Source: Minisyncoccia bacterium | GTDB lineage: Bacteria > Patescibacteriota > Minisyncoccia > Phycocordibacterales > Phycocordibacteraceae | Assembly: GCA_038228545.1 (NCBI GenBank) | Contig: JBBRPE010000001.1 | Location: 110,924-174,923 of the forward strand | Reading direction: 5' to 3' | Length of the DNA stretch: 64,000 nt | Shown: one piece after another, positions 5,148-42,003 of the stretch | How positions within the stretch are numbered: the first letter of the stretch is position 1 | Layout of the letters: the number at the start of each line of letters is the position of its first letter | Notes under the pieces: model-generated | Seen by the model: only the letters and a program-made list of their open reading frames with translations | Told to the model about the DNA's origin: nothing | Databases searched by the model: none | Program-made: the position numbers and the translations under genes

Positions 5148-7379
5148 CTATTTTGCGACCGCAGCAGCTTCTTCAAATTTAACTGAAAGTAGTTTACTGA
5201 TACCATCCGCGCCCATAGTGACGCCGTAGAGTATTCCGGCGCGCGACATAGTCTCGCGGTTGTGGGTGATGACGATGAGCTGGGATTTCTTGGCAAGCTC
5301 TTCAATCATGTCGCCGTAACGGCGCGAGTTTGCCTCGTCGAGTGCTGCGTCCGTCTCGTCGAGTATGAGGAACGGTGGCGGATTCACCTGACTCATAGCA
5401 AAAATAAGTGCGATAGACGTAAGTGCACGCTCACCGCCAGAAAGTTGCATGAGTGACTGCACGCGCTTCTTCGGCAAATGTACGGAAATTTCAATACCGG
5501 GCTTGCCCTGCTTCTTTGTTTTCTTCCCTGATATTTCTTCGTCTTCGTAGGTTTCGTCTTCATCGTCTTCCTCAATAGCATCCTGTTCCTCAAGGATGAG
5601 CTTTGCGCCACCGCCGCCAAACATAATGCCAAAGTATTCGCCGAAGGAATGATTTACCTGCGCGAGACCTTCAGCGAACGTTTTTGTAAGTTCGTCGTCG
5701 AGGTCAGTAATAAGTCCTGCCAAGCCCTCTGCAGACTTTGCGAGGTCTGCAAGCTCGCGTGCAAGAAATTCTTCGCGTTCGGTTGCTTCCGTGTATTCTC
5801 GCTTTACATCTTCACCAGTGCCGCCCGCTTCTTCCACACGAATCTTGAGACGTTCGAGAGTACGCTTTCGCATCTCCTGCACGGAACGCTCTTCGCTCGA
5901 TATTTCTTCCTGTTCATGATTAAACGCACTCGCTCCTGCAAGCGAGAGTACTTCCGCCCTATCGCGCTCAAGTTCGTCCGCGAGACTCTGGAGCTCGCGC
6001 ACACGGTAGTCTTCGCGAGCAACACTTCCTTCTTCACGGGCTTTCGTTTCTGCAAGTCCGAGGATGCGTCGCTTTTCTTCGCGGCCAGTCTCTTCATAGG
6101 CAAGTGCCGTCTCACGCGCTTTCATAAGCACGCTACGCGCCTTCTCGACAGCACCCTCGAGCTCGGCGTCCTTCTTCATGAGCTCGGTACGCTCGTTCTC
6201 GAGCTGATAGACCGTATTCTCCTCATCCTTGAGATAGTCGTCGTTTGGAGCCGCGTAACGGTCAAAGAAGGCAGCAACAGCAGCACGTAGTCCTTGGAGG
6301 GCTGCACGTATCGCGCCTGGTTCCGCCTGTTCCGTTTCGACAATCTTGGACTGTTTCTCCACTTCTTCGCGAAGCGTAGAGAGATCCTCACGGGTGACTT
6401 TCACGTACGGCTCGCGCGCGATAGCCGCCGTGCGTTTCTTTGCTTCATGGAGCCCGCCTTCGATGCGACCTATCTCGCGGGAAAGCGTGGAGCGTTCGCT
6501 CCCGATACGATCCACCTCACGCTCAGCCATTCGAATAGCTTCACTACGCTTCATACTCTCAGAGTCGCCGGTAACACCCTCGTCAAAGACTGCAAGTTCA
6601 GCGCTTGCGGTCGCGAGCTTCTCTGCTGCCACCATCTTGCGCTTAGCGGCATGCTCACGCTCCGACTCAATGTAGTTTTCCTCGACAGCGAAGTAGGTGC
6701 GAGCGAGCGATGCGAGCTCGTTCATGAGTTCTTCCGCGCGCTCTACCTTCTCTACTTGTTTCTGAAGGAAGCGGATGTGCGGAGCTATCTCTCGCCTAAG
6801 TGCTTCTACCTCACGGACATTATCCTGCGTGCGATCGAGTTTGCGTTCTGCTTCCTGTTTCTTGAATTCAAAAACTTTCAGACCAAGTGCATCTTCGAGC
6901 ATGGCGCGCCGCTCACGCGGATGTGCAAGCAAGATGCGGTCTGCCCCCCCCTGCGAGATGATGTGATGGCCTGTTTCGCCGATATTTGCTGACGCGAGAA
7001 GTTCCTGCACATCGCGCAAACGTACCTTCGAGCCGTTGATGAGGTATTCGGAAGACCCGTCTCGGAAAACAGCACGCTCAATCGTGACTTCCTCAAAGTC
7101 GAGCTTCGGGAATATGCGCTTGCGGTTATCGAATACGATAGCAACGGATGCGCGGTTGGAACGTGGTGTGGAATTAGACCCGCTCCATATAAGGTCTTCA
7201 CTGCGCTTGCCGCGCATGGATTTCATAGACTGTTCGCCAAGAGCAAAGCGGAACGCTTCAGCGACATTTGATTTACCCGAACCATTAGGCCCCACTATCG
7301 AAGTGGTTGCATTAGAAAAATCCAGAATCGTCTTTTTCGCGAACGATTTAAAGCCGACTATCTCGAGCCGTTTCAACAT
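5148..7379 (-). CDS. smc: SMC-family chromosome segregation ATPase (short, ~743 aa)
   Basis: N-terminal Walker A MLKRLEIVGFKSF...GPNGSGKSN, long coiled-coil middle, C-terminal signature LSGGERALTSIALIFA...LDETDAALD; start taken at ATG 7379 (ORF track extends to 7439). Confidence 0.8.
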   Translation of the reverse strand: MLKRLEIVGFKSFAKKTILDFSNATTSIVGPNGSGKSNVAEAFRFALGEQSMKSMRGKRSEDLIWSGSNSTPRSNRASVAIVFDNRKRIFPKLDFEEVTIERAVFRDGSSEYLINGSKVRLRDVQELLASANIGETGHHIISQGGADRILLAHPRERRAMLEDALGLKVFEFKKQEAERKLDRTQDNVREVEALRREIAPHIRFLQKQVEKVERAEELMNELASLARTYFAVEENYIESEREHAAKRKMVAAEKLATASAELAVFDEGVTGDSESMKRSEAIRMAEREVDRIGSERSTLSREIGRIEGGLHEAKKRTAAIAREPYVKVTREDLSTLREEVEKQSKIVETEQAEPGAIRAALQGLRAAVAAFFDRYAAPNDDYLKDEENTVYQLENERTELMKKDAELEGAVEKARSVLMKARETALAYEETGREEKRRILGLAETKAREEGSVAREDYRVRELQSLADELERDRAEVLSLAGASAFNHEQEEISSEERSVQEMRKRTLERLKIRVEEAGGTGEDVKREYTEATEREEFLARELADLAKSAEGLAGLITDLDDELTKTFAEGLAQVNHSFGEYFGIMFGGGGAKLILEEQDAIEEDDEDETYEDEEISGKKTKKQGKPGIEISVHLPKKRVQSLMQLSGGERALTSIALIFAMSQVNPPPFLILDETDAALDEANSRRYGDMIEELAKKSQLIVITHNRETMSRAGILYGVTMGADGISKLLSVKFEEAAAVAK

Positions 7380-16769: not shown

Positions 16770-16812
16770 TAAATGCAAAAGCCGCAGACCAGAGGTCTGC
16801 GGCTTTTGCATT
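16770..16812 (-). terminator. Strong terminator hairpin after the giant surface protein gene
   Basis: 20-bp perfect stem aaatgcaaaagccgcagacc-aga-ggtctgcggcttttgcattt. Confidence 0.6.
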
Positions 16813-16822
16813 TAGTAAGAGA

Positions 16823-19800
16823 TTAACCCTCGACTACCTGGAGTGCACGAGTCACCGCCATCTTCACTCCGGTAACGCCAGCTGAGTAGCTAGAGTCAAC
16901 TGCAGTTGAGAGCGAGGATACGAGGCGCTCAAGGAAGCTTGGTGCGCAGCCGGCAGTTGCCTGTGCAATTTCCGGATGTACAGCCGTTCCGTCAGTGTGT
17001 GCACGGAATGCATCATCGAGTGCAACAACTACATGGGTGAGGAACGCCTGTGCGTCGCCGCCTGTCTTGTTGATATCGCGAATGATTGCAAATACCGTTT
17101 CCTTTTCACCGGCGACAAGCGCCTTAATGAAGGAAGGTACGTCCTGAGAAATTACCTTCGCGACTGGTACTTCTACAGTATGAGCCACCGGAGCGGTCAT
17201 GACGGTTATCTGTTCTACCACATTAGCGATAGGAGTTGCATGTTGCGTCGGTGCGACGTAGCTGTGAGTCTCCGTCTCACGAGAGAGTCCCTTCACGATG
17301 TCGTCTACCGTAAGAGTGCCGTTGTCAGCGAGGGCCTTGAAACCTTCGTACGACGAGTAGGTACGAGATGCTACCGGACGAACTGGAGCAGCTACTGAGT
17401 GCATAGCGGGTACGTATGCGACCTGTGTGTGAGCAACTGGTGCGTGCGCTATAGGCGCATAGACCGGCTCGTTTACCGCGTAGCTCATTTCGCCACCGAA
17501 GATTCCCATGCGACGGAGTGCGAACGGAAGTGCGTTACCAAGAACGAGGTACGCAATCGCAAGGCTCCAGAGCACGAGCATGAGCCAGTAGAGCGCCGTG
17601 CCAACAGGACCCAGGTCGAGACCGGTGTACGGAAGGTCAGCGAGGTACACGTACGAGACTGGGTTTCCTGTTACCGGAAGCGAGTCGAGTACGATGTGCG
17701 GCTGAGTAGTATCGACACGGAGTGTTGCAGAACACGTGATGACGTTACCGTTCGTTCCATAGAACGTACCTACGTAGGTGTAGACTCCCTGGCCGTTTGG
17801 AGAGACAGAGCGAGAGCCGCTCGCGTTCACGTCCCCGATACCCTGGTCAAGATGAACGTTATTCGTGTTCGTACTGTTCCAGTAGATGCGTGCGCTGTCA
17901 CCACTGCTGATGTTCGACGGCGATACGCTGAGGGTACACGACGGTCCTGGATTGTACGTATTCGTCGAGACGGTTGTTGCACACGTTACTGTGCCACCTG
18001 CGCCGGTAGCTGTACCAGTGTAGGTACGAGAACCTCCCGGAGTAACGGTGACTGCACCGCCCGTAACGGGACTCATAGAACCGACACCCTGGTCAATGAC
18101 GAATGACGTTGCGTTTGTGGTATTCCACGTAAGCGTCGTCTGGCCATTGCTGTTGATGCTTCCCGGGTTAGCAGAGAGCGTACAGGTCGGGCTTGGCGTC
18201 ACGACAACAACCGTTGCAGGACACGTAATCGTACCGCCTGCACCGGACGCTGTAAGAGCGTAGTTAGTGGTATGCGTCGGCGTTATGTTGCCACTGCCTG
18301 AGGTTGCTACGTTCGAAGAATTCGTTCCGTCCGCAAGCGTTACAGTCGTAGCGTTCGCAGTCGTCCAAATGAGGGTAGAAGAACCACCATAGTTCACGCT
18401 TGCTGGGCTAGCCGAGAGCGTACAGGTAGGAGCAGGTGGTGGCTGCGTTACCGTAACGGTAATCGGAGCAGGACATACGACCGTTCCACCAGGGCCAGTA
18501 GCCGTGAGTGTATAGGTCGTGGTCTGAGTAGGAGCTACGTTGCGGGAAGCCGCCGTTGCTACCGCTCCGATGCCCTGATTAATCGATACGCTCGTAGCGT
18601 TGTTGGTCGTCCACGAAAGCGTGGATGCACCTCCCTGCTGAATAACCTGTGGCGTTGCCGTAAGAGTACAGGTTGGAGCCTCTGGTGTTACAACGACGAT
18701 AGTCGTTGAACAATTTACCGAGGTGCTATTCGCACCCGTAGCCGTGAGGGTGTACGTCGTGGTTACGCTTGGCGCAACTGCAACTGAACCGTTTACAGAG
18801 ACAGTACCAACGCTTGAGATGCTTACTGCAGATGCGTTGCTCGTCGTCCAGGAAAGCGTTGCCGCTGAGCCCTGGGTGATTGAGGTCGGAACTGCAGAGA
18901 GCGTACAGCTTGGGTTCGATGGTGGAACCACATAGATGATGGTCTGACAGGTAGCAGTGCCGCCTGCACCCGAAACTGTAAGCGTGTAGGTTGAGCTCGC
19001 ACCAGGGGAGACAACTGTTGACCCGCCTGATACTGGTGAGATTGAACCGACACCCGAGAGTGAACCCGAAGTAGCGTTCACGCTCGTCCACGTAATGGTC
19101 GAACTACCTCCCTGCTGGATTGAGTTTGGCGAAGCGGTGAGCGTACAGGAAGGAGTTGGAGGAACGATGGTTACGACTACTGTTGTAGAACAGTGCGCAA
19201 CGCCACCAGGACCAACTGCCGTACCGGTGTAGGTCGTGGTCTGACTTGGCCACACACCGATGGAACCGCCCTGTACTGACTGAACATTTCCGATACCCTG
19301 GTCAACCGAGAAACTCGTTGCGCCAGACGTTGTCCATGAAAGATTCGATGAACCTCCCTGCTGGATGTTGTTTGGAGATGCGTTAAGCGTACAAATCGGA
19401 GGATTTGGCTGAACAACGGTTACCGTTGCCTGACAATTCACCGTACCGTTTGCACCAGTTGCCGTAAGTCCGTAGGTTGTCGTTTGTGATGGAGATACCA
19501 GTACCGAGCCGCCGAGCGATACGCTTCCGAGAGTCGAAATAGTAACGCTGTTTGCGTTCGTGGTTGACCATGAAAGTGTTGCGCTGTTTCCAGCAAGTAC
19601 GGACGTCGGACTAGCCGAGAGCGTACAGGTTGGTGGCTGTGGTGGCTGATTCACCGTAATGGTGGTCTGACAATTAACGCTACCGCCATTACCAGTTGCA
19701 GTAAGGGTGTAGGTTGTCGTGCCCCACGGGGTCACGTTCATTGAGCCGCCTGGAGAAACCGCACCGATGCCCTGATTAATCGATACGCTCGTTGCGTTAG

Positions 19801-21340
19801 AGGTCGTCCAAGAAAGAGTGGACGCACCACCGGTCGTAATCGATGTTGGGTTCGCATTAAGCGTACAGGTTGGTGGCTGTGGTGGCTGATTCACCGTAAC
19901 GCTGGTGTAACAACGGACCGTGCCGCCTGCACCTGTTGCAGTGAGTGTGTAATTCGTCGTCTGTGCAGGTGCCACAGTACGGGAACCGAATGTGCCAACT
20001 GATCCGACACCCTGGTCGATAGTTACTGACGTAGCGTTCGTCGTTCCCCAGTTGAGGGTGGACGCGCCGCCGGTCGTAATAGACGAAGGACTTGCGGAGA
20101 GCGTACAGGTTGGTGGCTGTGGAGCCTGCGTTACGACAACCGTCGTGTTGCAGTTTGCCGTGCCTCCAGGACCCGTAACCGTAAGGGTGTAGGTTGTCGT
20201 TTGTGTTGGGGAAACCTGCACGGAACCGCCAGTCGAGACTGCGCCGAAGCCGGTAAGGCTTGCAGAGGTCGCGTTGTTCGATGTCCAAGAGACTACCGAA
20301 GACTGACCATTCTGAATCGAGGTTGGATTTGCAGAGATGGTACAGCTTGGAGCCTGTGGTGGCTGATTCACGGTAACGGTCGTGTAACAGTGGACAGTTC
20401 CACCATTGCCGCTAGCAGTAAGGTCGTACGTCGTCGTCTGTGTCGGGCTAACGTTGCGTGAGCCGTTCGAAGCAACTGCGCCTACTGTTGGTGAAATCGA
20501 AATGCTTGCTGCATTTGTCGTTCCCCAGTTGAGGGTAGATGCACCACCCGTCGTTATGGAAGCAGGGCTCGCCGTAAGCGTACATGTTGGGGAAGGAATC
20601 TGAGTCACCGTTACGGTTGCGTAACAATGGATAGTACCGCCGTTACCGATAGCCGTAAGGTCGTAAGACGTCGTCTGGGACGGCGACACGTTGCGTGAGC
20701 CGGACGTATTTACCGAACCAATGCTCTGATTAATAGAAACGCTGTTTGCGTTCGTGGTATTCCACGAAAGCGTCGAGCTTCCGCCATTCTGTATGGACGT
20801 CGGGTTTGCTGAGAGCGTACAGGTCGGAGCTGGCGTCGGAATGGTTACCGTAACGGTGGTCGTACAATGTACGGTTGTGCCGTTACTAGTAGCCGTAAGG
20901 TCATAGGTCGTCGTCTGTGACGGATTTACCGTACGTGAACCTGAGGTTCCAACTCCACCGATGCCCTGATCGATACTAACGGTATCAGCATTCTGCGTGG
21001 ACCATGAAAGATTTGAAGAATAGCCCTGAGTTATCGTCGACGGATTTGCGTCGAAGTTACAGGTAGGAGGAGGCAGGGGAGCCGGTGCTGGAGTCACGGG
21101 TGCCGGAGCTGGCGCCGGTGCTGGAGCAGGAGGTGGTGGTGGGGGTGGTGGGGGTGGTGGGGCCGGAGCAGGGGGCGGAGTACAGCACGGTGGAAGAACC
21201 TGCGCCATAACCTGCGTAGGTGTTACGAGTCCGGTTGCAAAAGCAATACCGACGCCTGCTGAGAAAACGGTAAGTACGGTAACGACACCGATAAGAATCG
21301 GGCGCTGCTTTGCGTAGGACATTGAAGTTTCGATGCTCAT
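16823..21340 (-). CDS. Giant cell-surface protein (1505 aa): N-terminal TM/signal anchor, Pro-rich linker, ~17 tandem ~80-aa Cys-bounded Ig-like repeats, LPVTG/LPYTG sorting-signal-like segment with TM helix and RR, then ~255-aa C-terminal domain
   Basis: Repeats of form CTLSASPxSIxxGGSSTLxWxTTNATSVxIDQGIGxVxxSGSRxVSPxQTTTYTLTAxGxGGTVxC; 240-nt periodicity at DNA level; LPVTGNPVSYVYLADLPYTGLDLGPVGTALYWLMLVLWSLAIAYLVLGNALPFALRR. Confidence 0.8.
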   Translation of the reverse strand: MSIETSMSYAKQRPILIGVVTVLTVFSAGVGIAFATGLVTPTQVMAQVLPPCCTPPPAPAPPPPPPPPPPPAPAPAPAPAPVTPAPAPLPPPTCNFDANPSTITQGYSSNLSWSTQNADTVSIDQGIGGVGTSGSRTVNPSQTTTYDLTATSNGTTVHCTTTVTVTIPTPAPTCTLSANPTSIQNGGSSTLSWNTTNANSVSINQSIGSVNTSGSRNVSPSQTTSYDLTAIGNGGTIHCYATVTVTQIPSPTCTLTASPASITTGGASTLNWGTTNAASISISPTVGAVASNGSRNVSPTQTTTYDLTASGNGGTVHCYTTVTVNQPPQAPSCTISANPTSIQNGQSSVVSWTSNNATSASLTGFGAVSTGGSVQVSPTQTTTYTLTVTGPGGTANCNTTVVVTQAPQPPTCTLSASPSSITTGGASTLNWGTTNATSVTIDQGVGSVGTFGSRTVAPAQTTNYTLTATGAGGTVRCYTSVTVNQPPQPPTCTLNANPTSITTGGASTLSWTTSNATSVSINQGIGAVSPGGSMNVTPWGTTTYTLTATGNGGSVNCQTTITVNQPPQPPTCTLSASPTSVLAGNSATLSWSTTNANSVTISTLGSVSLGGSVLVSPSQTTTYGLTATGANGTVNCQATVTVVQPNPPICTLNASPNNIQQGGSSNLSWTTSGATSFSVDQGIGNVQSVQGGSIGVWPSQTTTYTGTAVGPGGVAHCSTTVVVTIVPPTPSCTLTASPNSIQQGGSSTITWTSVNATSGSLSGVGSISPVSGGSTVVSPGASSTYTLTVSGAGGTATCQTIIYVVPPSNPSCTLSAVPTSITQGSAATLSWTTSNASAVSISSVGTVSVNGSVAVAPSVTTTYTLTATGANSTSVNCSTTIVVVTPEAPTCTLTATPQVIQQGGASTLSWTTNNATSVSINQGIGAVATAASRNVAPTQTTTYTLTATGPGGTVVCPAPITVTVTQPPPAPTCTLSASPASVNYGGSSTLIWTTANATTVTLADGTNSSNVATSGSGNITPTHTTNYALTASGAGGTITCPATVVVVTPSPTCTLSANPGSINSNGQTTLTWNTTNATSFVIDQGVGSMSPVTGGAVTVTPGGSRTYTGTATGAGGTVTCATTVSTNTYNPGPSCTLSVSPSNISSGDSARIYWNSTNTNNVHLDQGIGDVNASGSRSVSPNGQGVYTYVGTFYGTNGNVITCSATLRVDTTQPHIVLDSLPVTGNPVSYVYLADLPYTGLDLGPVGTALYWLMLVLWSLAIAYLVLGNALPFALRRMGIFGGEMSYAVNEPVYAPIAHAPVAHTQVAYVPAMHSVAAPVRPVASRTYSSYEGFKALADNGTLTVDDIVKGLSRETETHSYVAPTQHATPIANVVEQITVMTAPVAHTVEVPVAKVISQDVPSFIKALVAGEKETVFAIIRDINKTGGDAQAFLTHVVVALDDAFRAHTDGTAVHPEIAQATAGCAPSFLERLVSSLSTAVDSSYSAGVTGVKMAVTRALQVVEG

Positions 21341-21469: not shown

Positions 21470-22471
21470 CTACTGCGGACAGTCTTCGAAGCGGAACCAC
21501 AAGTTGGTCCGCACGGAGCTGGCCCGAGCTTCTGCCTCGGAATTCCACACGATAGCCACTTCCTTGCGGTCGCGCTGTGCGTGGTATTCCGGAGGTTCGA
21601 CACCCATGCCACACGACGTCGTGCCGTCGTGCTCGGTCTTGCACAGCACGAGCCGGAGGCTCGCATCGTGCGCAAACCGAACCGGAACACGTACCGAGTA
21701 CCAGCCCGGAGTAACCCGGAGACAGCCACGGGAGTGAACCCGCATCTGCAGTGCGCTGGCGACGGCTGCAAAGTCGCAGTCTTCGTCACGCACCTGGTCG
21801 AGTGGCCGGTAGGCCCGTTCGGTGAAGGCGCCGTTTTGAAGCGGACCTTGAACGCCGATCGGGCACGCCGCTTCTTCTTGCGGCGTGATGTCTGTGGCGG
21901 CCATGGCCCCCACGTTCACCACATCGTCGTCGGCCGTTGTCCGAAACACCACGAACGCGCAGGGCGGCGGAGCGACAGGCGAGAGGCCCGGGTTGACGCA
22001 GTCAAGCTTCACGACGATGCGTCCGGTGATGCGGTCCCGAAAGACCTGCACGCCGGCAGCAATCCGCTGTGGCTGACACTGCATGAACACGTCGTCGGCT
22101 TCGCGGCTGTGACCGCGAACGCACGACGAGTAGTATTCGATGGAGTGGTCGACTTCGAAGCGCTCGACATCTTCCCGAAGGAAGCGAAGCATCTGGGCGA
22201 AGTCGCCGAGATGTTCGGATTCAGGATCCCCTTGGCGGAAAGCCGCGAGGAACTGAATCGGGTTAGCCACGCATCCGCGGAGCGGACGATGACCGGTCGA
22301 GTCGAGTCGAAGTGACTCCGTCATCCTGGTGGTGAGCTCCCCAATCGAGGGAAGTCCACCCGGACAGAAGGCGTGGTACGGATGTGTCGTTGCCTCTGCC
22401 GTTCCCGGCGCTCCCACCAAAGGCGGCAGCGCAAGAACGACTGAGGCGAGTAGCGCGGTGATGCGCTTCAT
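21470..22471 (-). CDS. Hypothetical secreted Cys-rich protein (333 aa) in a GC-rich island
   Basis: Signal peptide MKRITALLASVVLALPPLVGAPGTAEA after AGGGAG SD; ~10 Cys; local GC visibly higher (~60%+) than flanks; ORF track N-terminal extension (to 22588) disregarded. Confidence 0.55.
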   Translation of the reverse strand: MKRITALLASVVLALPPLVGAPGTAEATTHPYHAFCPGGLPSIGELTTRMTESLRLDSTGHRPLRGCVANPIQFLAAFRQGDPESEHLGDFAQMLRFLREDVERFEVDHSIEYYSSCVRGHSREADDVFMQCQPQRIAAGVQVFRDRITGRIVVKLDCVNPGLSPVAPPPCAFVVFRTTADDDVVNVGAMAATDITPQEEAACPIGVQGPLQNGAFTERAYRPLDQVRDEDCDFAAVASALQMRVHSRGCLRVTPGWYSVRVPVRFAHDASLRLVLCKTEHDGTTSCGMGVEPPEYHAQRDRKEVAIVWNSEAEARASSVRTNLWFRFEDCPQ

Positions 22472-22607: not shown

Positions 22608-23270
22608 TTACTGAATACTCACCAAGTGAGCAATAACAACGAAACGGTCTGACTTGGTAGCGAACGAATCGCAGGTGACAAGCGTAAGCTTGCTTCCCTC
22701 TACCGTAAGCGGCACACCGTCGTTCTGTGTATTCGCCTGTGCAACCGTCTCGATTTCGTAGACGTACGTCTTCCCTGCTCCTGTCACCAGAATCTGGTCA
22801 CCATGCGCAAGAGTCTGAATACCGTCGAATGCTTTGTAGGCCTGATTGTGGACGACGGGTAGGTAACTCGAGTGTCCGAAGATAACGACGTTCTTGCCGT
22901 TCTCACCAAGCGAGCCTGACGTTGGATAGCGCACAGCTCCATAGAGAAGATCGTTATCCAACACCTGTGCATTGGTACTCGTCGGATTAGCGACCGTTAC
23001 CGAAAGATTAATCTTTGGAATCGAAATCTTTTCCGGAAGCACTGCGGCTCCAGCAACTTCTGATTGCTGCTGTTGCTCGGTTAGCACCGGCGCCTGTGTG
23101 CCAGTCTTTGATGTGTCAGGGAGCAAGTCGAGTCCGGAAAGCGCAAGTACCGTGGTACCGAATATCACAAAGGCGAACGCAAGGAAGCTCCACTTCTTTG
23201 CGATAATGAGTGATATTCCGCCTTTCGGCTTGGCTGTGGTTGGGTTTGTGGACATATCGGTCTTATACAT
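22608..23270 (-). CDS. srt: Sortase family transpeptidase
   Basis: N-terminal TM anchor, catalytic His context VVIFGHSSY, TLxTC signature LTLVTC, conserved Arg near C-terminus. Confidence 0.8.
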   Translation of the reverse strand: MYKTDMSTNPTTAKPKGGISLIIAKKWSFLAFAFVIFGTTVLALSGLDLLPDTSKTGTQAPVLTEQQQQSEVAGAAVLPEKISIPKINLSVTVANPTSTNAQVLDNDLLYGAVRYPTSGSLGENGKNVVIFGHSSYLPVVHNQAYKAFDGIQTLAHGDQILVTGAGKTYVYEIETVAQANTQNDGVPLTVEGSKLTLVTCDSFATKSDRFVVIAHLVSIQ

Positions 23271-23359: not shown

Positions 23360-24613
23360 GTGGTAATAAGTACGCATATGGAAACGACCCAGAATCACCC
23401 CCAGGTACAGACGACTAAGCGCGCTGCCGTAGGCGGCCTCGCAGTCGTCGGCTTTGTAGCGCTTATTCTTATTGGCATTGCAACTGCAATTTACGCAGCA
23501 TCCTTCCTTCCGAAGGCGTTCTCGAAGCTCTCTTCGGCAAACGTGTTCCTTTCGGGAATTGCCCAGCCAAACGACAACAATCAGCTCCAGGTGGTACAGC
23601 CAACAAACACCACGCCGGCTCCGACCTCTATTGTGCTTTCACCAGCAACCACGACCAACACTGTTATCACTCCTATCTATACACCTCCAGCACCGACCCC
23701 GACGTACACTGCTCCAGCGCCAAAGCCGACCTATACCGCTCCAGCAACACCGACGTACCATGTTGTCGCAGTTCCTGCTTCAACCAACTACACCGGACTT
23801 CCTGATCTTACGACGTCCATCATGTCGGTTGGGTACCTCCGCAACAACGGAGACACCAATTCCTTCGTCGCGGCTAATACCGTGCCAACGGGGCTTCAGG
23901 GTGCTGTTCGCTTCTCTATAGCTAACCGCGGAACAAACGTCTCTGCTCCATTTATCTTTGAGGCAAACATTCCAAGCGGCAACAGCTCAACGGTCTATCG
24001 TTCCCCATCTGAGCGTGCGCTCAATCCAGGCGATAGCGTTATCTTTACGCTCGGCTTCGACTCTACTCAGAGCGGAAGTCAGAACCTTCGTGTGACTGTT
24101 GATCCAAGCAACTACATTGCTGAATCAAACGAAAGCAACAACACTGGTACCGCTACTATTTACCTCAGTGGCAACTACAACAACTCGAATAACAATTCGA
24201 ACAACAACTCAAGTCAGTACGACAGCAACGGTACCTACTGTACGTACGGAACGTACTACTCAAATAGTCGTTACTACTGCAACTCAAGCTACAACGGTAA
24301 CAACAATTCGAATTCGAACACCAGCTCGTACGACAGCAATGGTCAGTATTGTACCTACGGGACGTACTCCTCAAGCGGTCGTTACTACTGCAACTCAAGC
24401 TACAACAGTAACGGTAACAACAATTCGAATCAGAACGATATCAACGGTCGCAATTGCCTCTACGGTACTTCCTACAGCAACGGTCAGTACTACTGCAACG
24501 CAAATACATACACTAATACTAATACCAACACCGGCAACAGTCAGTACGACAGCAACGGTCAGTATTGTGCCTACGGGACGTACTACTCGAACAATCGCTA
24601 TTACTGCTCCTAA
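23360..24613 (+). CDS. Membrane-anchored surface protein: N-terminal TM, Pro/Thr-rich linker, CARDB-like domain, C-terminal N/S/Y-rich tandem repeats
   Basis: CARDB-like ending ...NLRVTVDPSNYIAESNESNN; 4x repeat YDSNGxYCxYGTYYSNxRYYCNSSYN. Confidence 0.75.
   Translation: MVISTHMETTQNHPQVQTTKRAAVGGLAVVGFVALILIGIATAIYAASFLPKAFSKLSSANVFLSGIAQPNDNNQLQVVQPTNTTPAPTSIVLSPATTTNTVITPIYTPPAPTPTYTAPAPKPTYTAPATPTYHVVAVPASTNYTGLPDLTTSIMSVGYLRNNGDTNSFVAANTVPTGLQGAVRFSIANRGTNVSAPFIFEANIPSGNSSTVYRSPSERALNPGDSVIFTLGFDSTQSGSQNLRVTVDPSNYIAESNESNNTGTATIYLSGNYNNSNNNSNNNSSQYDSNGTYCTYGTYYSNSRYYCNSSYNGNNNSNSNTSSYDSNGQYCTYGTYSSSGRYYCNSSYNSNGNNNSNQNDINGRNCLYGTSYSNGQYYCNANTYTNTNTNTGNSQYDSNGQYCAYGTYYSNNRYYCS
24212..24610 (+). 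repeat. Tandem direct repeats (~108-111 nt, 4 copies) encoding the N/S/Y/C-rich C-terminal repeats
   Basis: agtcagtacgacagcaacggt...cgttactactgcaactcaagctacaac recurring at 24212, 24323, ~24430, 24539. Confidence 0.7.
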
Positions 24614-37038: not shown

Positions 37039-40000
37039 CTAGAACTCGTTGAACTTCGGGAGGACATTCACCGTCACCGACCTCGAAACTCCCTCACACG
37101 TAACGGTGTAGGTAGACTGGGTGGTCACATTCAGGATGGTTGTCGTGTTTGTGCTTGCAGCATTCGTAATATCGCACGATGTGTCCGAAAGGGTTGAGTT
37201 GGTGGTGTTAAAGCCTGGACCACCGATATTCGTTCCGGTAAGGGTACACGCCACGCCTGTAGTTACACCGGTTGCACTCCATGAGACGACTACCGAACCG
37301 CCCGAAACGACGCGCGACGGTGTCGCCGTAATAGTTGGGGTGTCTCCAGCTCCACAGGTGTAGGGGTTACCAGTGATAGTAACTGGTGTGCAGGAGGTCG
37401 GGCCTGCATTCTGCGTGCCATTGGTTGCGCTCACCGTCGGTGAGTAGCTACCCCCGCCTGCGTACTTGTTTATAAACGTTGTTGCAGAACTGGTTTGTGA
37501 CGATGGATTACCGCCGACGGCGCTCCACGTGTAGCTGTTTGCTGCTGGCGCGAAGTTGGCTGCGACCACGGTCCACGTCACGTTCTGATTCGGTGCAGCA
37601 CTAGCGGGTGATGGCGTACAGGAAGATATAACTGGAGAAGCCGGAGCCGTCACAGTCACGGCTGTCCAGGCACTGCAGTTGTCGACTTCACTTGACTCCG
37701 TAATAGTACCCGTGCCTGCGGACGAGTTCTTGTCGGCGCAGACGCGCATGTACTTCGTTGTGCCGGCGTCTGCAAGCGGGTAGGTATAGGAAATGGTCGC
37801 CGGTTCCGTATTGCCGTTCGCAAGAGTAGCCGTAACAATCGTGCCTGCATCAATCACGTTGATGGTGCCCGCTGCATTATCGGCACGCTGGAGCAAGTTA
37901 GTGAACGTAGCTCCCGTCGAAGCATTACCAGTGTTTGAAATCGTAGAAGTAAACGCTACCGAAGAATTTGCTTGAGCGGTGCTCGGTGTTACGACGCCCG
38001 CGGTAAGATTCGGCTGGTTGAGCGACACAAGTGTAAGGGTGACGCCACAGAACGGACTTCCCCACGTGTTAGTAGTTATGCCATTTGCGGTTGAGCCAGG
38101 GAAGGTGCTTACATAACCCGCGCTTTGCTTATGGATGACGGCAGACTGTCCAACGGTGATAAGTCCGCGATGTACGGCAGCAGCGCCTATGTCCGAGTCT
38201 TGCGTATATGGACTACTTCCCCACACACTACCGCCATTTGCACCGCCCGTAACGCTGACGTCGCCGGTGTACGCGGAACACTGGTCGGTTACGGTAACAG
38301 CTGTCCAAGCTCCACAATTATTTACCTCATTTGATTCCGCTATGGTGCCGGTGCCTGCAGCAGAGTTTTTATCGGCACAAATACGCATGTACTTGGTCTT
38401 TCCCGCATCATTCGCAGGGAATGTGTAGAAAATAGTAGCTGCCTCCGTACTACCGTTAGCAAGGGTCGCTGTCACAACCGTACCTGCATCAACCACGTTG
38501 ACGGTGCCCGCTGCATCGTCCGCTTTTTGGAGCAGGTTTGTGAAGGTTGCGCCGGTAGATATAGTACCGGTGTTCGATATGGTCGAAGAGAAGCTTGTGG
38601 CGTTTCCTTGCACAGCTGTCGTCGGAGATACTGCTCCGGCTGAAAGGTCGGACGCAGCGCCCGCGATACTTACACTGTTACTGCAAGCAAAGCTTGTACT
38701 CTGGCTACCAGACGTAACCAATACCGATGCGGTCTTGCTTCCCGGTGAAGCATAGGAAGGAGATATCGATATGCTTGACCCCGAGATTCCGTCCGTACCA
38801 CTCCAAGAATACGTGTACGCGCCGGTTCCACCTGATGGAACTGCGGTCCAAGTAACAGCTGCACCAGTGATAGCAGATGTCGGTGACACCGAACACGTTG
38901 CGGAAAGTGTTGGGTATACCGTGACCGCAGTCCAAACGCTACAGTTATCCGCCTCATTCGATTCAGTAATGACGCCTGTACCGACGGCTGATTGCTTATC
39001 TGCACAGGCACGCAAGTACCAGGTGCCAGCCGTAAGTGAGACGGTTGGTGTGAATGTTGCGGTGTTCGATGCTGGCGAAGCGCCAAGTGTTGGATTTGCA
39101 TAGGTGGCGACGTCCGTTGCGCCGGTTCCACCTGAGTCAGTAGCGCGCTGAAGCAGGTCGGTAAATCCAGCGCCTGAGCTAAGACTGCCTGTATTGCTTA
39201 TGGTCGCGGTATACGTCTGTGCGATACCATTCACTGCCGTTGCAGGAGTTGGTCCACTCGCTGTGAGGTTTGGTTGTGCTGCTGCAGTTACGGTGACCGT
39301 CTGGTATGCGCTGCAGTTATTGCCCTCGTTTGATTCGTTTACGGAACCTACAAAGGAAGAATTATTGTCGGCGCATGCACGTACCTGGAAGGTGCCGGTA
39401 GACCCGAAGGTAACGCTCGCACTCGCCGTGCCTGAAGTACCGGAAGTAAGATTTCCAATCGTGTTGGCTGCGTAGATGGAGCCACCCGAGACCTGAATAA
39501 TGTTATTGAAATTACCACCTGATGGATTGGTTGGTCCGAGTCCGCTATTGGTTACTGTAGAATTTATAGTCACTGCGACATTCACAGTAGCGGACGTCGG
39601 CGAGACGAGACCGGCGGCCAAGTCCGGCAAGTTGACCGTAACGACAGAGGTGCCCGTTGCTGTTCCTGTACCGGTACAGGTAAGTGTGTACGTAGTACTC
39701 GTTGATGGTGTGACGACGACCGTATGGGAGCTTCCGTCCGCAGTTATTGCTCCAACACCATTATTGATAGAGCCTGACGAAGAGTTTGCACAGGTATAGG
39801 TAAGTGTCTGACTACTGCCCACGTTTATGGTCGCTGCAGCTGGTGTAAATGTTGCTACCGGAGCTGCAGGAGCTGCAATAGCAACTGAAGTCCATGGTCC
39901 GCAGTTATTTGCCTCGTTCGATTCAGCGACAGCATTAGAGGTGTCCGCGCAGAGACGCACTTGATACGTTCCTGCCGCACCGAATGAGTAGGTGCTTCCG

Positions 40001-42003
40001 GCGGTCACGCCACTCGAACCGCTCGCGGCTATAGCGATGGCCGGAGATGTACCCACAGTTGTGACTCCTTGTATCTCGAAGTATGACGTGAAGGCCGGGA
40101 ACGCGACCGCATTTCCGATGTTTTGAACGGTGCCCGTGAACGTGAGCGGTGTGCCAGCAGTTCCTGAAACCGGCGCAACATTTGCCGTCACTGTAAGATC
40201 CGGCTGTAGGCCGGTTATTGATACCGTGGTGCTACATGCCAGTGCAGACGTGGTTTGCACGCCATCTGAAATAGTAACCGTACCGGTCTTTGAGCCCGCT
40301 GATGGATAGGTTACCGGTGCACTCGGTCCAGTTGCGCCAGCAAGCGGAGCAGTCCCTCCCCAAGAGTAGGTATAGCCACTTCCCGTTCCGCCCGAACCAC
40401 TCGCGGTCCAGGTTATGGTCGTTGCTGTTGTACCAGATGACGGCGATGCGGAGCAGGAGCCGGTCAGTACTGGGTAGGCAGTAATGTTGGAGAACGCCTG
40501 AGTTGAACCCGTACCAGTACATGTAAGTGTGTACGTGGTAACACCGCTTGATCCAGGAGTGACACTCATGGTGTGTGCCGACCCGTCTGCAGTTATTGCC
40601 GTTCCGTTAATAGTTCCGCTCGATGAATTAGTACAGGTGTACGTCAGGGTCTGGCTTGCGCCAAGAATTATAGTCGCCGAAGTCGGCGTTAATGTCGCCA
40701 CAGGAGCTGGTGGAGTTGTAATAGTAACGGTTTTCGAAGTCCAACCTGATAACCCGCCACGACTGTCTTGTGTCTGTGCCTCGAATGTATAGGTACCCGC
40801 AGAGCCCCAGGAGTGATTGCTCGTGCCTTGTGTTCCGGACGAGATATAGCCCGACGCAGGAATAAGCTCGTCTACGGTGCCGTTATTGTCCCAATCGACT
40901 CCGTAACGGATAGTGTCTCCGTCAGGGTCAGTCGCTGTGAATCCGTAGCCGTAGCTGGTGCTTGTAAGACCGGACGCTGGACCGGTGATGGTCGGCGCAT
41001 TGGGGTTATTGTTCGAGGCAATGCCGACCAGTGCGTACGGAATGACCATCGCACCTACGTTTAGCACATAGGGACTTTTTATGATGGTGTTGCTGTTCCA
41101 TGCAGCAGCTCCTCCGCTCACCGTCGGTTGACCGAAACCGGATATGGCACCGCCCGTCATGGGGAGATTGTTTCCATAACAGCCTGCAACATAGCTATAC
41201 CCGTCTTGACTTGAATTGCGATAGTCGTAATACCGGTAATAGAATTTGCCTGTCGTTGCCCCGTAATTAAATGTAGGGGTGAGGGGTCCGGTTCCAGTAA
41301 TAGTGCACTGTTGCTTAAGAGAACCATCTCCTTGCACTACCGGACCTCCACAGCTCATGCCAGTCGTCCCCGTAAGAGAGCGTGCTGGCGGAGCGACACG
41401 GAGCGGTACGTAGACGTCGAAGTTAAGGTTTAGACCAGCGCTCGCGTCTTGATAATTATAATTGACGATAAAGTCGTTCGGATTACAGGTGATTGAAGAC
41501 GGCGCACTTGCCTGCCAGTCACCATAGGGTGAGTCTGCAGAATACCCCGTTCCGAACCACGTTATATTCTGTGGTGTCCATGCAGGGAACACAAAATTAA
41601 CAACGGTTCCGGTAGGAACACTAGCTCCGCTCGATATGATTTGTCCGTTCGAAGCGTTCGTTACAGATACGTCATAGCCGATAGTGATGTCCGGATTTGA
41701 TAGTCCGTCTACCCATCCTTCAGTGCTGCTTTCGCCACCACCTATCCACCGGTTCCAGGCATACCAAAGGTCATCATTCACCGTTATGTGCTGCGTATAG
41801 CTTCCGCTATTAGGAACCGATGCAGCAACAGTTAGAGTTTCAGTACTACTACTTGGAGATGGGTCGGTTTCCGGAGGAATGGCATTATTACCAACATTGT
41901 ACGTACAGGTACCGCTACACCCCGCCCAGGCACCATGTGCAAGCAACAAGACCGCACCGAGTGCGAACGTGAGCAGCACAGCTGTTTTAAGTGTTTTCAT
42001 CAT
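37039..42003 (-). CDS. Giant secreted surface protein (1654 aa) with multiple CARDB-like repeats, a PKD/Ca-binding-like segment and an LCCL domain
   Basis: Signal peptide MMKTLKTAVLLTFALGAVLLLAHGAWA; CARDB repeats ending ESNE(A/V)NNC; TDPDGDTIRYGVDWDNNGTVDE; LCCL-like CSAYTGDV...VWGSSPYTQDSDIGAAAVHRGLITVGQ...; start overlaps upstream stop (ATGA). Confidence 0.8.
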   Translation of the reverse strand: MMKTLKTAVLLTFALGAVLLLAHGAWAGCSGTCTYNVGNNAIPPETDPSPSSSTETLTVAASVPNSGSYTQHITVNDDLWYAWNRWIGGGESSTEGWVDGLSNPDITIGYDVSVTNASNGQIISSGASVPTGTVVNFVFPAWTPQNITWFGTGYSADSPYGDWQASAPSSITCNPNDFIVNYNYQDASAGLNLNFDVYVPLRVAPPARSLTGTTGMSCGGPVVQGDGSLKQQCTITGTGPLTPTFNYGATTGKFYYRYYDYRNSSQDGYSYVAGCYGNNLPMTGGAISGFGQPTVSGGAAAWNSNTIIKSPYVLNVGAMVIPYALVGIASNNNPNAPTITGPASGLTSTSYGYGFTATDPDGDTIRYGVDWDNNGTVDELIPASGYISSGTQGTSNHSWGSAGTYTFEAQTQDSRGGLSGWTSKTVTITTPPAPVATLTPTSATIILGASQTLTYTCTNSSSGTINGTAITADGSAHTMSVTPGSSGVTTYTLTCTGTGSTQAFSNITAYPVLTGSCSASPSSGTTATTITWTASGSGGTGSGYTYSWGGTAPLAGATGPSAPVTYPSAGSKTGTVTISDGVQTTSALACSTTVSITGLQPDLTVTANVAPVSGTAGTPLTFTGTVQNIGNAVAFPAFTSYFEIQGVTTVGTSPAIAIAASGSSGVTAGSTYSFGAAGTYQVRLCADTSNAVAESNEANNCGPWTSVAIAAPAAPVATFTPAAATINVGSSQTLTYTCANSSSGSINNGVGAITADGSSHTVVVTPSTSTTYTLTCTGTGTATGTSVVTVNLPDLAAGLVSPTSATVNVAVTINSTVTNSGLGPTNPSGGNFNNIIQVSGGSIYAANTIGNLTSGTSGTASASVTFGSTGTFQVRACADNNSSFVGSVNESNEGNNCSAYQTVTVTAAAQPNLTASGPTPATAVNGIAQTYTATISNTGSLSSGAGFTDLLQRATDSGGTGATDVATYANPTLGASPASNTATFTPTVSLTAGTWYLRACADKQSAVGTGVITESNEADNCSVWTAVTVYPTLSATCSVSPTSAITGAAVTWTAVPSGGTGAYTYSWSGTDGISGSSISISPSYASPGSKTASVLVTSGSQSTSFACSNSVSIAGAASDLSAGAVSPTTAVQGNATSFSSTISNTGTISTGATFTNLLQKADDAAGTVNVVDAGTVVTATLANGSTEAATIFYTFPANDAGKTKYMRICADKNSAAGTGTIAESNEVNNCGAWTAVTVTDQCSAYTGDVSVTGGANGGSVWGSSPYTQDSDIGAAAVHRGLITVGQSAVIHKQSAGYVSTFPGSTANGITTNTWGSPFCGVTLTLVSLNQPNLTAGVVTPSTAQANSSVAFTSTISNTGNASTGATFTNLLQRADNAAGTINVIDAGTIVTATLANGNTEPATISYTYPLADAGTTKYMRVCADKNSSAGTGTITESSEVDNCSAWTAVTVTAPASPVISSCTPSPASAAPNQNVTWTVVAANFAPAANSYTWSAVGGNPSSQTSSATTFINKYAGGGSYSPTVSATNGTQNAGPTSCTPVTITGNPYTCGAGDTPTITATPSRVVSGGSVVVSWSATGVTTGVACTLTGTNIGGPGFNTTNSTLSDTSCDITNAASTNTTTILNVTTQSTYTVTCEGVSRSVTVNVLPKFNEF

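What the first reader, a model, noticed from the sequence alone, without database searches (positions are those of the whole stretch)
16823..17700. LPxTG-type sorting signal followed by an extra ~255-aa domain
The giant Ig-repeat protein carries LPVTG and, 20 aa later, LPYTG followed directly by a hydrophobic helix and RR. This is the canonical sortase cell-wall sorting signal. The reading frame then continues, with Met immediately after RR, for ~255 more residues with no stop. After sortase cleavage a membrane-embedded C-terminal fragment with a presumably cytoplasmic domain would remain. That is atypical: sorting signals normally end the protein. This could be a fused downstream gene, a programmed read-through or a genuine bipartite protein.
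Basis: seen in the sequence. Interest (0 to 1): 0.6.

Follow-up and report, generated by a model that had tools for sequence, protein, structure and literature searches.

The report
Sortase signal followed by conserved cytoplasmic domain
A giant surface protein of an ultra-small (Paceibacteria, CPR) bacterium carries a sortase-type anchoring signal followed by a conserved 228-residue intracellular domain, and this layout recurs in over 160 species beside a dedicated sortase gene, so it is a real and undescribed variant of cell-wall sorting, not an assembly error.

Summary
ORF 16823-21340 encodes 1505 aa. It has a signal peptide, PPCC plus poly-Pro, 14 Ig-like repeats, LPVTG, LPYTG, a TM helix and RR. 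After RR come 228 more residues, ending at a stop and a hairpin.

The continuation is not an artefact. Motif, helix and tail lie in one ORF in 87/87 related loci, and 166 species representatives encode a relative.

The conserved motif is [IVLM]-P-Y-T-G-L-D/E-L-G-P-x-G-T. LPVTG is a non-conserved chance match, and the Met after RR is not conserved.

A sortase gene with intact His/Cys/Arg lies upstream on the same strand in 60/60 loci with enough flank. One natural variant lacks the ectodomain, the motif and the sortase gene, yet keeps the helix and tail.

The tail ends in a roughly 105-aa helical domain modelled at high confidence. It matches the domain III "collar" of clamp-loader DnaX, delta and delta'.

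Best reading: this is a dedicated sortase-substrate system whose post-cleavage membrane remnant is itself a functional protein. Cleavage is inferred, not shown. Neither Pfam, NCBIfam nor the literature describes it. It is a new variant of a known kind. Interest 0.65.

The parts
16823..21340 (-). Whole gene, 1505 aa: signal peptide, PPCC/poly-Pro, 14 Ig-like repeats, PYTG motif, TM helix, cytoplasmic tail
   Evidence: ORF list and translation. The exact protein is present in NCBI as a 1505-aa call.
21233..21340 (-). N-terminal signal-peptide-like segment (aa 1-36: K/R n-region, 20-aa h-region, AFA|TG)
   Evidence: Hydropathy peak at aa 13-40. The same layout with an AxA site occurs in complete homologs. 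Cleavage is inferred.
21182..21193 (-). PPCC motif at the start of the mature protein, followed by a poly-Pro/Ala spacer
   Evidence: Translation. A CC motif is present in 39 of 59 complete homologs.
17699..21061 (-). 14 tandem ~80-aa Ig-like repeats, each with a conserved Cys pair
   Evidence: Repeat parsing and alignment A5. AF2 pLDDT 92.6. Foldseek hits to SoxY, PKD, Ig and an S-layer protein.
17666..17680 (-). LPVTG: non-conserved chance match, not part of the signal
   Evidence: Homologs have LPHV/LPQV..QPL here, and the T and G columns are variable.
17597..17662 (-). Conserved extracellular block PVSYVYLADLPYTGLDLGPVGT, holding the sortase-type pentapeptide LPYTG at 17621-17635
   Evidence: Column counts in 78 homologs: P69, L63, Y71, L77, S69, P77, Y75, T77, G77, L76, D68/E10, L77, G78, P68, G79, T80. 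xPYTG occurs in 84/87 loci.
17516..17605 (-). Transmembrane helix, unusually well conserved (Y, W, W, S, A, A, Y, F, P positions)
   Evidence: Hydropathy. AF2 helix 30-75 with pLDDT 90-95. Column counts include Y82/82, W82/82, Y88/88 and P95/95.
17510..17515 (-). RR stop-transfer (positive-inside) residues
   Evidence: Translation. These columns are R56/K10 and R63/K11.
17276..17359 (-). Conserved cytoplasmic motif YSSYEGFKALADNGTLTVDDIVKGLSRE, between Pro/Ala/His-rich linkers
   Evidence: Invariant or near-invariant F120, L129, D133, I134, V135, G137, L138 and R140. AF2 short helices 116-121 and 131-141.
16826..17143 (-). C-terminal ~105-aa six-helix domain with the fold of clamp-loader (DnaX gamma/tau, delta, delta', RFC) domain III, the 'collar'
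   Evidence: AF2 block pLDDT of 91-98 over most of this stretch (84-85 for residues 261-280). Foldseek pdb: 46 of the top 47 hits are clamp-loader subunits, rmsd 2.1-2.7 over about 112 columns for the best hits, 18-20% identity, best E 1.5e-3. Weak DnaX HMM hit in the same region, E 0.13.
16777..16807 (-). Terminator-like hairpin (GCCGCAGACC-TCT-GGTCTGCGGC + TTTT) 15 nt after the stop codon
   Evidence: Read directly from the sequence. The consensus scan did not list it.
22608..23270 (-). Sortase gene (220 aa, N-terminal TM anchor, His133/Cys200/Arg209), same strand, two genes upstream
   Evidence: Pfam PF04203, E 7e-22. No curated class reaches its cutoff. Catalytic residues are invariant in four orthologs. 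A sortase is present upstream in 60/60 loci.
21470..22471 (-). Secreted Cys-rich protein of unknown function (333 aa from MKRITALL), between the sortase and the substrate gene
   Evidence: Translation. No Pfam or NCBIfam hit. Positional orthologs in L001, L005 and L006 and in 43 ORF hits across the loci.
23360..24613 (+). Divergently transcribed membrane-anchored CARDB-domain protein; part of the block that is co-lost with the sortase
   Evidence: Pfam CARDB, E 2e-9. Same position in L006 and L088. Absent in L089.

Best explanation
The gene encodes a genuine two-part precursor that serves as the dedicated substrate of the sortase encoded two genes upstream.

Shown:
- One uninterrupted ORF holds a signal-peptide-like N-terminus, a variable surface stalk (here 14 Ig-like repeats), a conserved [IVLM]PYTG-LDLGPxGT block, a conserved TM helix, basic residues and a conserved 228-aa tail.
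- The tail ends in a clamp-loader-collar-like helical domain.
- This architecture and the neighbouring sortase are conserved across Paceibacteria.

Inferred:
- The precursor is exported by Sec and held in the membrane by the C-terminal helix.
- The membrane-anchored sortase, with its catalytic domain outside, cleaves between Thr and Gly of PYTG and transfers the stalk to the cell wall (lipid II or peptidoglycan).
- The remnant GLDLGPxGT-TM-tail stays in the membrane as a protein with its own function.
- That function is most plausibly oligomerisation or scaffolding through the collar-like domain. In clamp loaders this domain is the oligomerisation module (established knowledge).
For: 1. Not an artefact. 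113 database homologs cover motif, TM and tail. 166 GTDB species representatives encode a relative, and 80 loci show tblastn matches across the junction. All 87 tail-bearing stop-to-stop ORFs contain the motif in the same ORF.
2. Motif conservation. P, Y, T and G are present in 75-77 of 78 sequences, with I/V/L/M in front. They are also kept in a second subfamily, IPYTGFEAGP, whose flanks and middle tail domain differ.
3. Sortase linkage. A PF04203 sortase with invariant H/C/R lies 1.3 kb upstream on the same strand. The same holds in 60/60 loci with at least 2.5 kb of upstream DNA. In subfamily 2 the gene order changes but the sortase becomes directly adjacent, with a 3-nt gap.
4. Co-loss. 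The one full-length homolog lacking ectodomain and PYTGLDL (P0096) sits in the same gyrB/thrS/dnaE slot. There the sortase, the middle gene and the CARDB gene are all absent, while the TM helix and tail are retained.
5. Topology and composition. The ectodomain has 30 Cys, 0 Lys and 1 Glu. The tail has 1 Cys and a normal charged composition. RR follows the helix.
6. No other candidate substrate. No other LPxTG-plus-TM signal occurs in the window, and no canonical C-terminal signal occurs in about 1.3 Mb of related loci.
7. The tail is folded. AF2 pLDDT is above 90 over most of it, and the clamp-loader domain III match is specific.
8. Precedent. Post-sortase C-peptides can be functional in S. 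gordonii, where SGO_1180 senses them (cited in PMC11326707 and PMC11502775).
Against: - Cleavage has not been observed; all evidence is comparative.
- The sortase link sits inside broader conserved synteny (gyrB ... thrS-dnaE). Part of the 60/60 figure may therefore reflect shared ancestry rather than functional coupling.
- The co-loss is a single evolutionary event.
- Conservation extends well beyond what known sortases read: YLSQ before the motif, LDLGPxGT after it, and the helix itself. That pattern would also fit a structural juxtamembrane element.
- No LPXTG or Gram_pos_anchor model matches.
- The sortase fits no curated class.
- Whole genomes could not be searched for other substrates.
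- The function of the collar-like domain is an inference from fold alone (Foldseek E about 1e-3; sequence HMM E 0.13).
Confidence: 0.65

Rival explanations
1. Uncleaved type I membrane protein. PYTGLDLGPxGT is a structural or interaction motif next to the membrane, the whole protein stays membrane-anchored through its helix, and the neighbouring sortase processes some other protein elsewhere in the genome.
For: Conservation extends well beyond the pentapeptide and includes the TM helix. No LPXTG-anchor HMM matches. A long folded cytoplasmic domain is what an ordinary transmembrane receptor or anchor would carry. The synteny block also includes unrelated housekeeping genes.
Against: PYTG is the part kept across both subfamilies while its flanks change. 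The sortase is adjacent in 60/60 loci and remains adjacent after a gene-order change. Motif, ectodomain and sortase are lost together in P0096. No alternative substrate was seen in the window or in 1.3 Mb of related loci.
Confidence: 0.22
2. Sortase-dependent polymerisation or signalling rather than wall anchoring. Either the sortase joins stalks into fibres (pilus-like, or head-to-tail through the new N-terminus), or its cut acts as a 'site-1' cleavage that frees or activates the cytoplasmic collar-like domain.
For: The best, though sub-threshold, NCBIfam match of the sortase is class C. The remnant is conserved and persists without the sortase in P0096. C-peptide signalling has precedent.
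Against: The ectodomain has no lysine at all, so the canonical pilin-motif Lys nucleophile is absent. No partner kinase, sigma factor or site-2 protease is seen in the cassette. Nothing tests release of the tail.
Confidence: 0.1
3. Assembly or annotation artefact: two genes fused by a lost stop or a frameshift, or programmed read-through, or a separately translated tail starting at Met1278.
For: Sorting signals normally end the protein (PMC12445088). A Met directly follows RR. Repeat-rich genes of this family often break assemblies.
Against: The same uninterrupted junction occurs in 87/87 loci from independent assemblies and in 113 database proteins. The Met column is variable. No Shine-Dalgarno-like sequence precedes it. 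The tail has no independent hydrophobic anchor.
Confidence: 0.02

Closest known systems
Canonical LPXTG cell-wall sorting signal and sortase A substrates of Gram-positive bacteria (e.g. S. aureus protein A)
   Same: N-terminal signal peptide, xPxTG pentapeptide, hydrophobic helix a few residues later, basic residues on the cytoplasmic side, and a membrane-anchored Cys transpeptidase with a His/Cys/Arg triad (definition in PMC12445088).
   Different: The signal does not end the protein; 228 conserved residues follow. The consensus is IPYTG inside a 22-residue conserved block. The TM helix is itself conserved. No PF00746 or TIGR01167 match.
Dedicated one-sortase/one-target systems (SrtB-IsdC with NPQTN; class GN 'marine' sortase TIGR03784 with its single target)
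   Same: A sortase gene is genomically paired with one substrate carrying a variant, family-specific motif. The sortase falls outside the housekeeping class.
   Different: The sortase matches none of those classes at threshold (TIGR03784 scores 21.9 bits against a cutoff of 158). The substrate carries a large cytoplasmic domain. A third, secreted Cys-rich gene belongs to the cassette. The host is a CPR bacterium.
C-peptide sensing in Streptococcus gordonii (remnant of the LPXTG signal sensed by histidine kinase SGO_1180)
   Same: The membrane remnant left by sortase has a function of its own (PMC11326707, PMC11502775).
   Different: There the remnant is a helix of about 30 residues acting on a separate kinase. 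Here it is about 265 residues with a folded domain, and it is kept by selection even where the sortase and motif are lost.
Domain III ('collar') of clamp-loader subunits DnaX gamma/tau, HolA delta, HolB delta' and RFC
   Same: Same helical fold (rmsd 2.1-2.6 A over about 112 columns, 18-20% identity). Similar sequence pattern (weak DnaX HMM hit at model positions 234-288).
   Different: There are no AAA+ domains I or II. The domain is tethered to the membrane behind a sorting signal. Sequence-only searches of Pfam and PDB find nothing.

Membership tests
Sortase substrate with cell-wall sorting signal (LPXTG type) | N-terminal Sec signal peptide | tested here: inconclusive
   A basic n-region, a 20-aa hydrophobic region and an AFA|TG site are present and conserved in homologs. 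No dedicated predictor was available.
Sortase substrate with cell-wall sorting signal (LPXTG type) | LPXTG-type pentapeptide on the extracellular side of the helix | tested here: met
   LPYTG at aa 1236-1240. The family has [IVLM]PYTG in 84/87 loci.
Sortase substrate with cell-wall sorting signal (LPXTG type) | Hydrophobic domain followed by a short positively charged tail that ends the protein | tested here: not met
   The helix and RR are present, but 228 more residues follow. The median is 268 residues after the Gly in 87 loci.
Sortase substrate with cell-wall sorting signal (LPXTG type) | Match to curated anchor models (PF00746 Gram_pos_anchor / TIGR01167) | tested here: not met
   No hit at E <= 1 in Pfam or NCBIfam for the whole protein or the C-terminal 291 aa.
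Sortase substrate with cell-wall sorting signal (LPXTG type) | Cognate sortase encoded in the genome | tested here: met
   PF04203 sortase at 22608-23270 on the same strand. Present in 60/60 related loci. Co-lost with the motif in L089.
Sortase substrate with cell-wall sorting signal (LPXTG type) | Cleavage between Thr and Gly and transfer to peptidoglycan | not testable with these tools
   Needs biochemistry or proteomics.
Sortase (PF04203) classes A-F/GN | Sortase domain with catalytic His, Cys (TLxTC) and Arg | tested here: met
   E 7e-22, 77.9 bits against a cutoff of 26.6. H133, C200 and R209 are invariant in four orthologs.
Sortase (PF04203) classes A-F/GN | Assignment to a curated class | tested here: not met
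   The best match is class C at 45.8 bits against a cutoff of 160. Classes E, D, F and GN all fall far below their cutoffs.
Sortase-assembled pilin | Lysine nucleophile (pilin motif) in the secreted part | tested here: not met
   Zero Lys in ectodomain aa 41-1235. Homologs often have 0-5.
Clamp-loader domain III (collar) fold | Structural match to domain III of gamma/tau, delta and delta' | tested here: met
   Foldseek pdb: 46 of the top 47 hits are clamp-loader subunits, probability 0.82-1.00 (1.00 for the best 36), rmsd 2.1-2.7 for the best hits. This rests on a high-confidence AF2 model.
Clamp-loader domain III (collar) fold | Significant sequence-profile match (e.g. PF12169, DnaX models) | tested here: inconclusive
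   Only NF011523 at E 0.13. No Pfam hit. No PDB sequence hit at E <= 10.
Clamp-loader subunit (DnaX/HolA/HolB) | AAA+ domains I and II preceding domain III | tested here: not met
   The tail upstream of the domain consists of disordered linkers and two short helices. It is not a clamp-loader subunit.

The most novel reading that the evidence does not exclude
Sortase cleavage here is a processing step in a transmembrane device, not merely an anchoring step. Cutting at PYT|G uncouples a wall-linked stalk from a membrane-tethered DnaX-collar-like module. That module then oligomerises or docks onto the clamp loader or replisome, linking surface assembly to replication or division in these minimal cells. 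The gene sits between gyrB and thrS-dnaE in the loci whose gene content was listed (window, L001, L005, L006, L088, L089). The tail is kept even when stalk, motif and sortase are lost.
Probability: 0.1. Interest if true: 0.9.

Novelty: new variant of a known kind. Interest (0 to 1): 0.65.

Why it matters
Sorting signals for sortases, exosortases, archaeosortases and rhombosortases are defined as short C-terminal tags whose leftover is usually treated as waste. This widespread, strictly conserved family breaks that rule. The leftover is a folded domain of about 265 residues in total that selection keeps even without the sortase.

That gives a concrete, testable case of a sortase acting on a bipartite protein. 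It also identifies the likely single substrate of the sortase found in many Paceibacteria. CPR sortases are noted as common, without this substrate described, in PMC6744442.

Finally, it defines a core envelope component of organisms whose cell surface and host attachment are poorly understood. It also warns annotators that C-terminal-only rules miss such substrates.

Tried and rejected
- Plus-strand reading. The given coordinates translated on the + strand are full of stops; the gene is on the - strand.
- Family models. Pfam and NCBIfam on the whole protein and on the tail gave no significant family. A PDB sequence-profile search gave nothing at E <= 10.
- Assembly-error, read-through and internal-start readings. 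These were rejected on ortholog evidence.
- LPVTG as a second signal. Rejected because it is not conserved.
- Pilin-type polymerisation. Disfavoured because the ectodomain has no Lys.
- Lipobox at PPCC. The residues before the Cys do not fit (by inspection).
- dnaX for profile comparison. I looked for a dnaX gene in the window and the fetched loci and found none.
- Middle gene. A homolog search returned only 3 hits, too shallow for a structure prediction.
- Source record. The look-up by the middle protein's exact sequence failed.
- Representative-library search. The profile included Ig-repeat columns, so its totals (15,479 hits) overstate the size of the tail family.
- Literature. Searches for sortase in CPR/Patescibacteria/Parcubacteria, for PYTG, and for internal LPXTG with cytoplasmic tails found no description of this architecture.
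- Terminator scan. The consensus scan did not list the hairpin after the stop codon that is visible by eye.
Full report
**1. Observation**

The coordinates are correct but the gene is on the minus strand. Translated on the plus strand, the interval is full of stops. ORF 16823..21340 (-) encodes 1505 aa.

Its C-terminal part reads ...HIVLDSLPVTGNPVSYVYLADLPYTGLDLGPVGTALYWLMLVLWSLAIAYLVLGNALPFALRRMGIFGG... The positions are as follows:

| Element | Residues | Window coordinates |
|---|---|---|
| LPVTG | aa 1221-1225 | 17680-17666 |
| LPYTG | aa 1236-1240 | 17635-17621 |
| Hydrophobic helix | aa 1246-1275 | 17605-17516 |
| RR | aa 1276-1277 | 17515-17510 |
| Met after RR | aa 1278 | 17509-17507 |

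- The frame continues for 228 residues after RR, or 265 after the Gly of LPYTG, to TAA at 16825-16823.
- A 10-bp GC-rich hairpin with a T-run follows at 16807-16777.
- The protein has only two hydrophobic segments, one N-terminal and this one.
- By composition, 0.10 LPxTG are expected in a protein of this make-up. Two or more occur in 0.5% of shuffles.
- This is the only LPxTG-like motif followed by a hydrophobic stretch in any frame of the window.
- The repeats are Ig-like. There are 14 units of about 80 aa, each with a Cys pair. One unit models at pLDDT 92.6 as a beta-sandwich that matches SoxY, PKD, Ig and S-layer domains.

**2. Is the continuation real?**

Yes.

- A search with the last 291 aa found 122 proteins. 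About 113 of them cover the motif, helix and tail, with E-values down to 4e-88. The named ones come from Paceibacteria and Minisyncoccia.
- A scan of one genome per GTDB species found 166 species with a relative. Eighty loci were fetched, and most showed tblastn matches spanning query residues 1-291.
- In all 87 loci (including the window and earlier look-ups), the tail lies in the same stop-to-stop ORF as an xP[YQ]TG motif. A median of 268 residues follows the Gly.
- The window protein is itself called as a 1505-aa gene in NCBI.
- The column of the Met after RR is variable (A23, V22, L15, M13, I5), and no ribosome-binding-like sequence precedes it.

A lost stop, a frameshift, read-through and a conserved internal start are therefore all rejected.

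**3. What is conserved**

Column counts over 78 sequences give P-L-x-[YF]-[VL]-Y-L-S-[QE]-[IVLM]-P-Y-T-G-L-[DE]-L-G-P-x-G-T-x-x-Y-W. P, Y, T and G occur in 75-77 of 78 sequences.

- Across the 87 loci the pentapeptide is IPYTG 52, VPYTG 13, LPYTG 8, TPYTG 6 and MPYTG 5.
- The upstream LPVTG is not conserved; homologs read LPHV.., LPQV.. followed by QPL.
- The TM helix is unusually well conserved, with invariant Y, W, Y and P positions.
- After basic residues comes a Pro/Ala/His-rich linker, then a conserved motif YSSYEGFKSFAxxGALTIDDIVKGLSRE, a second linker, and a strongly conserved domain of about 105 aa.
- A second subfamily keeps IPYTG, the helix and the final domain. It has FEAGP after the motif and a different middle domain.
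- The ectodomain is the variable part. It ranges from a Pro/Gly-rich spacer with no Ig repeats (L005, true ORF 5413-6861) to many repeats plus other domains.

**4. The tail**

AF2 with 114 sequences gave mean pLDDT 77.8. The model has a long helix at residues 30-75 (TM plus extension), two short helices in the YSSYEGF...SRE motif, disordered linkers, and a six-helix domain at residues 186-290. That domain has block pLDDT of 91-98 over most of its length, dipping to 84-85 at residues 261-280.

- Foldseek against the PDB returned clamp-loader subunits for 46 of the top 47 hits: E. coli gamma/tau, delta and delta', B. subtilis delta, and RFC. The best hits have rmsd 2.1-2.7 A over about 112 columns and 18-20% identity, with a best E of 1.5e-3.
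- The aligned part must be their C-terminal domain III, the collar, because the query has no alpha/beta AAA+ module. The only weak sequence hit, NCBIfam DnaX at E 0.13, maps tail residues 174-228 to model positions 234-288.
- Sequence-only searches of Pfam and PDB are negative.
- Composition supports the topology. The ectodomain has 30 Cys, 0 Lys and 1 Glu in 1195 residues, while the tail has 1 Cys and ordinary charged residues.

**5. The sortase link**

Two genes upstream on the same strand lies a 220-aa sortase (PF04203, E 7e-22). It has an N-terminal anchor and His133, Cys200 (TLVTC) and Arg209, all invariant in four orthologs at 42-47% identity. It reaches no curated class cutoff; the best match is class C at 45.8 bits against 160.

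Between the sortase and the substrate gene lies a secreted, Cys-rich, fast-evolving protein with no family. A CARDB-domain membrane protein is transcribed divergently.

- The order gyrB | CARDB(-) | sortase | secreted protein | PYTG protein | thrS | dnaE recurs in distant relatives.
- With HMMs built here, 60 of 60 loci having at least 2.5 kb upstream of the PYTG ORF carry a sortase on the same strand, 650-1800 nt upstream.
- In subfamily 2 the unknown gene and the sortase swap places. The sortase then abuts the substrate gene with a 3-nt gap.
- No canonical C-terminal sorting signal was found in about 1.3 Mb of these loci.

**6. A natural experiment**

P0096 is the only full-length homolog without the motif. 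It has an N-terminal helix, a 35-aa loop, then GPIGTTLYW..., the helix and the complete tail.

It occupies the same slot, with gyrB directly followed by P0096, then thrS and dnaE. The CARDB gene, the sortase and the secreted protein are all absent from the 17-kb locus. This is seen in two independent assemblies.

Ectodomain, motif and sortase are thus lost together while the helix and tail are kept. This ties the motif to the sortase. It also shows that the remnant is a functional unit in its own right.

**7. Mechanism**

Shown:
- The architecture.
- Its conservation.
- The sortase pairing.
- The fold of the tail.

Inferred:
- Sec export and signal-peptide removal.
- Retention in the membrane by the C-terminal helix.
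- Cleavage at PYT|G by the dedicated sortase, with transfer of the stalk to the wall.
- Persistence of GLDLGPxGT-TM-tail as a membrane protein whose collar-like domain oligomerises or scaffolds.

The oligomerisation role of domain III in clamp loaders is established knowledge. The canonical definition of a sorting signal is in PMC12445088. Functional post-sortase remnants have a precedent in S. gordonii.

The main rival is an uncleaved type I membrane protein, which the very broad conservation around the motif would also fit. I rate it at about 0.2. Pilin-type polymerisation is disfavoured because the ectodomain has no lysine.

**8. Comparison and novelty**

The system works like a dedicated sortase-substrate pair. 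It fails one defining feature of a sorting signal, because the signal does not end the protein. It also matches no curated anchor model or sortase class.

More than half of CPR genomes are reported to have a sortase (PMC6744442). Searches found no description of this substrate, of PYTG, or of sorting signals followed by cytoplasmic domains.

I file it as a new variant of a known kind.

- Interest is 0.65. The layout is surprising for sortase biology and gives a concrete handle on the CPR envelope, but cleavage and tail function remain inferred.
- The most novel reading not excluded is that sortase cleavage is a processing step that uncouples a wall-linked stalk from a membrane-tethered, collar-like module acting on the clamp loader, replisome or division apparatus. 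I give it a probability of about 0.1.

Noticed in passing
window 21182-21193 (-), aa 50-53, and homologs in L001-L086: Just after the predicted signal peptide, the mature protein starts with a conserved ...AQVxPPCC motif followed by a long poly-Pro run. A CC motif is present in 39 of 59 complete homologs, and in some an AxA site sits directly before CC. The function is unknown; an intermolecular disulfide, perhaps with the Cys-rich secreted neighbour, is possible.
   Followed up: partly
window 21470-22471 (-): A secreted, Cys-rich 333-aa protein lies between the sortase and the substrate gene. It matches no family and evolves fast: only 3 hits among 5.8 billion proteins, and 16-26% identity between positional orthologs with three invariant Cys. 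It is lost together with the sortase in L089.
   Followed up: partly
window 23360-24613 (+): A divergently transcribed membrane-anchored CARDB-domain protein has a C-terminal Asn/Ser/Tyr-rich region of repeated YCxYGTYYSNxRYYC-like units. It holds the same position in relatives and is absent where the sortase is absent.
   Followed up: partly
window 17699-21193 (-), ectodomain aa 41-1235: The composition is extreme: 240 Thr, 162 Ser, 122 Gly, 30 Cys, zero Lys and a single Glu in 1195 residues. This accounts for the positive GC-skew bump at 16-22 kb.
   Followed up: partly
window 59555-63913 (-): A 1452-aa protein carries a Peptidase_S74 domain (the intramolecular chaperone of endosialidase, typical of phage tail spikes and fibres) and a bacterial surface Ig-like domain. 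It is followed by a 723-aa DUF2341 protein at 57360-59531.
   Followed up: no
window 37039-42003 (-): A 1654-aa surface protein has five CARDB domains and an LCCL domain. It heads a same-strand run of genes that includes an Lnt-N-like membrane protein (43495-44994) and an SLT transglycosylase (46759-48117).
   Followed up: no
L003, L004, L006 and about 27 of the 87 loci: Homologous genes very often sit at a contig end or contain N-runs inside the repeat or poly-Pro region. Database entries for this family are therefore frequently N-terminally truncated, and gene callers start them inside a repeat.
   Followed up: partly
L089 8001-8978 and L090 745-1722 (P0096): This is a tail-only variant with two predicted helices, a 35-aa loop, no PYTGLDL and no ectodomain. 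It lies in a genome locus lacking the sortase cassette. It would be a useful natural control for any experiment on the remnant.
   Followed up: yes
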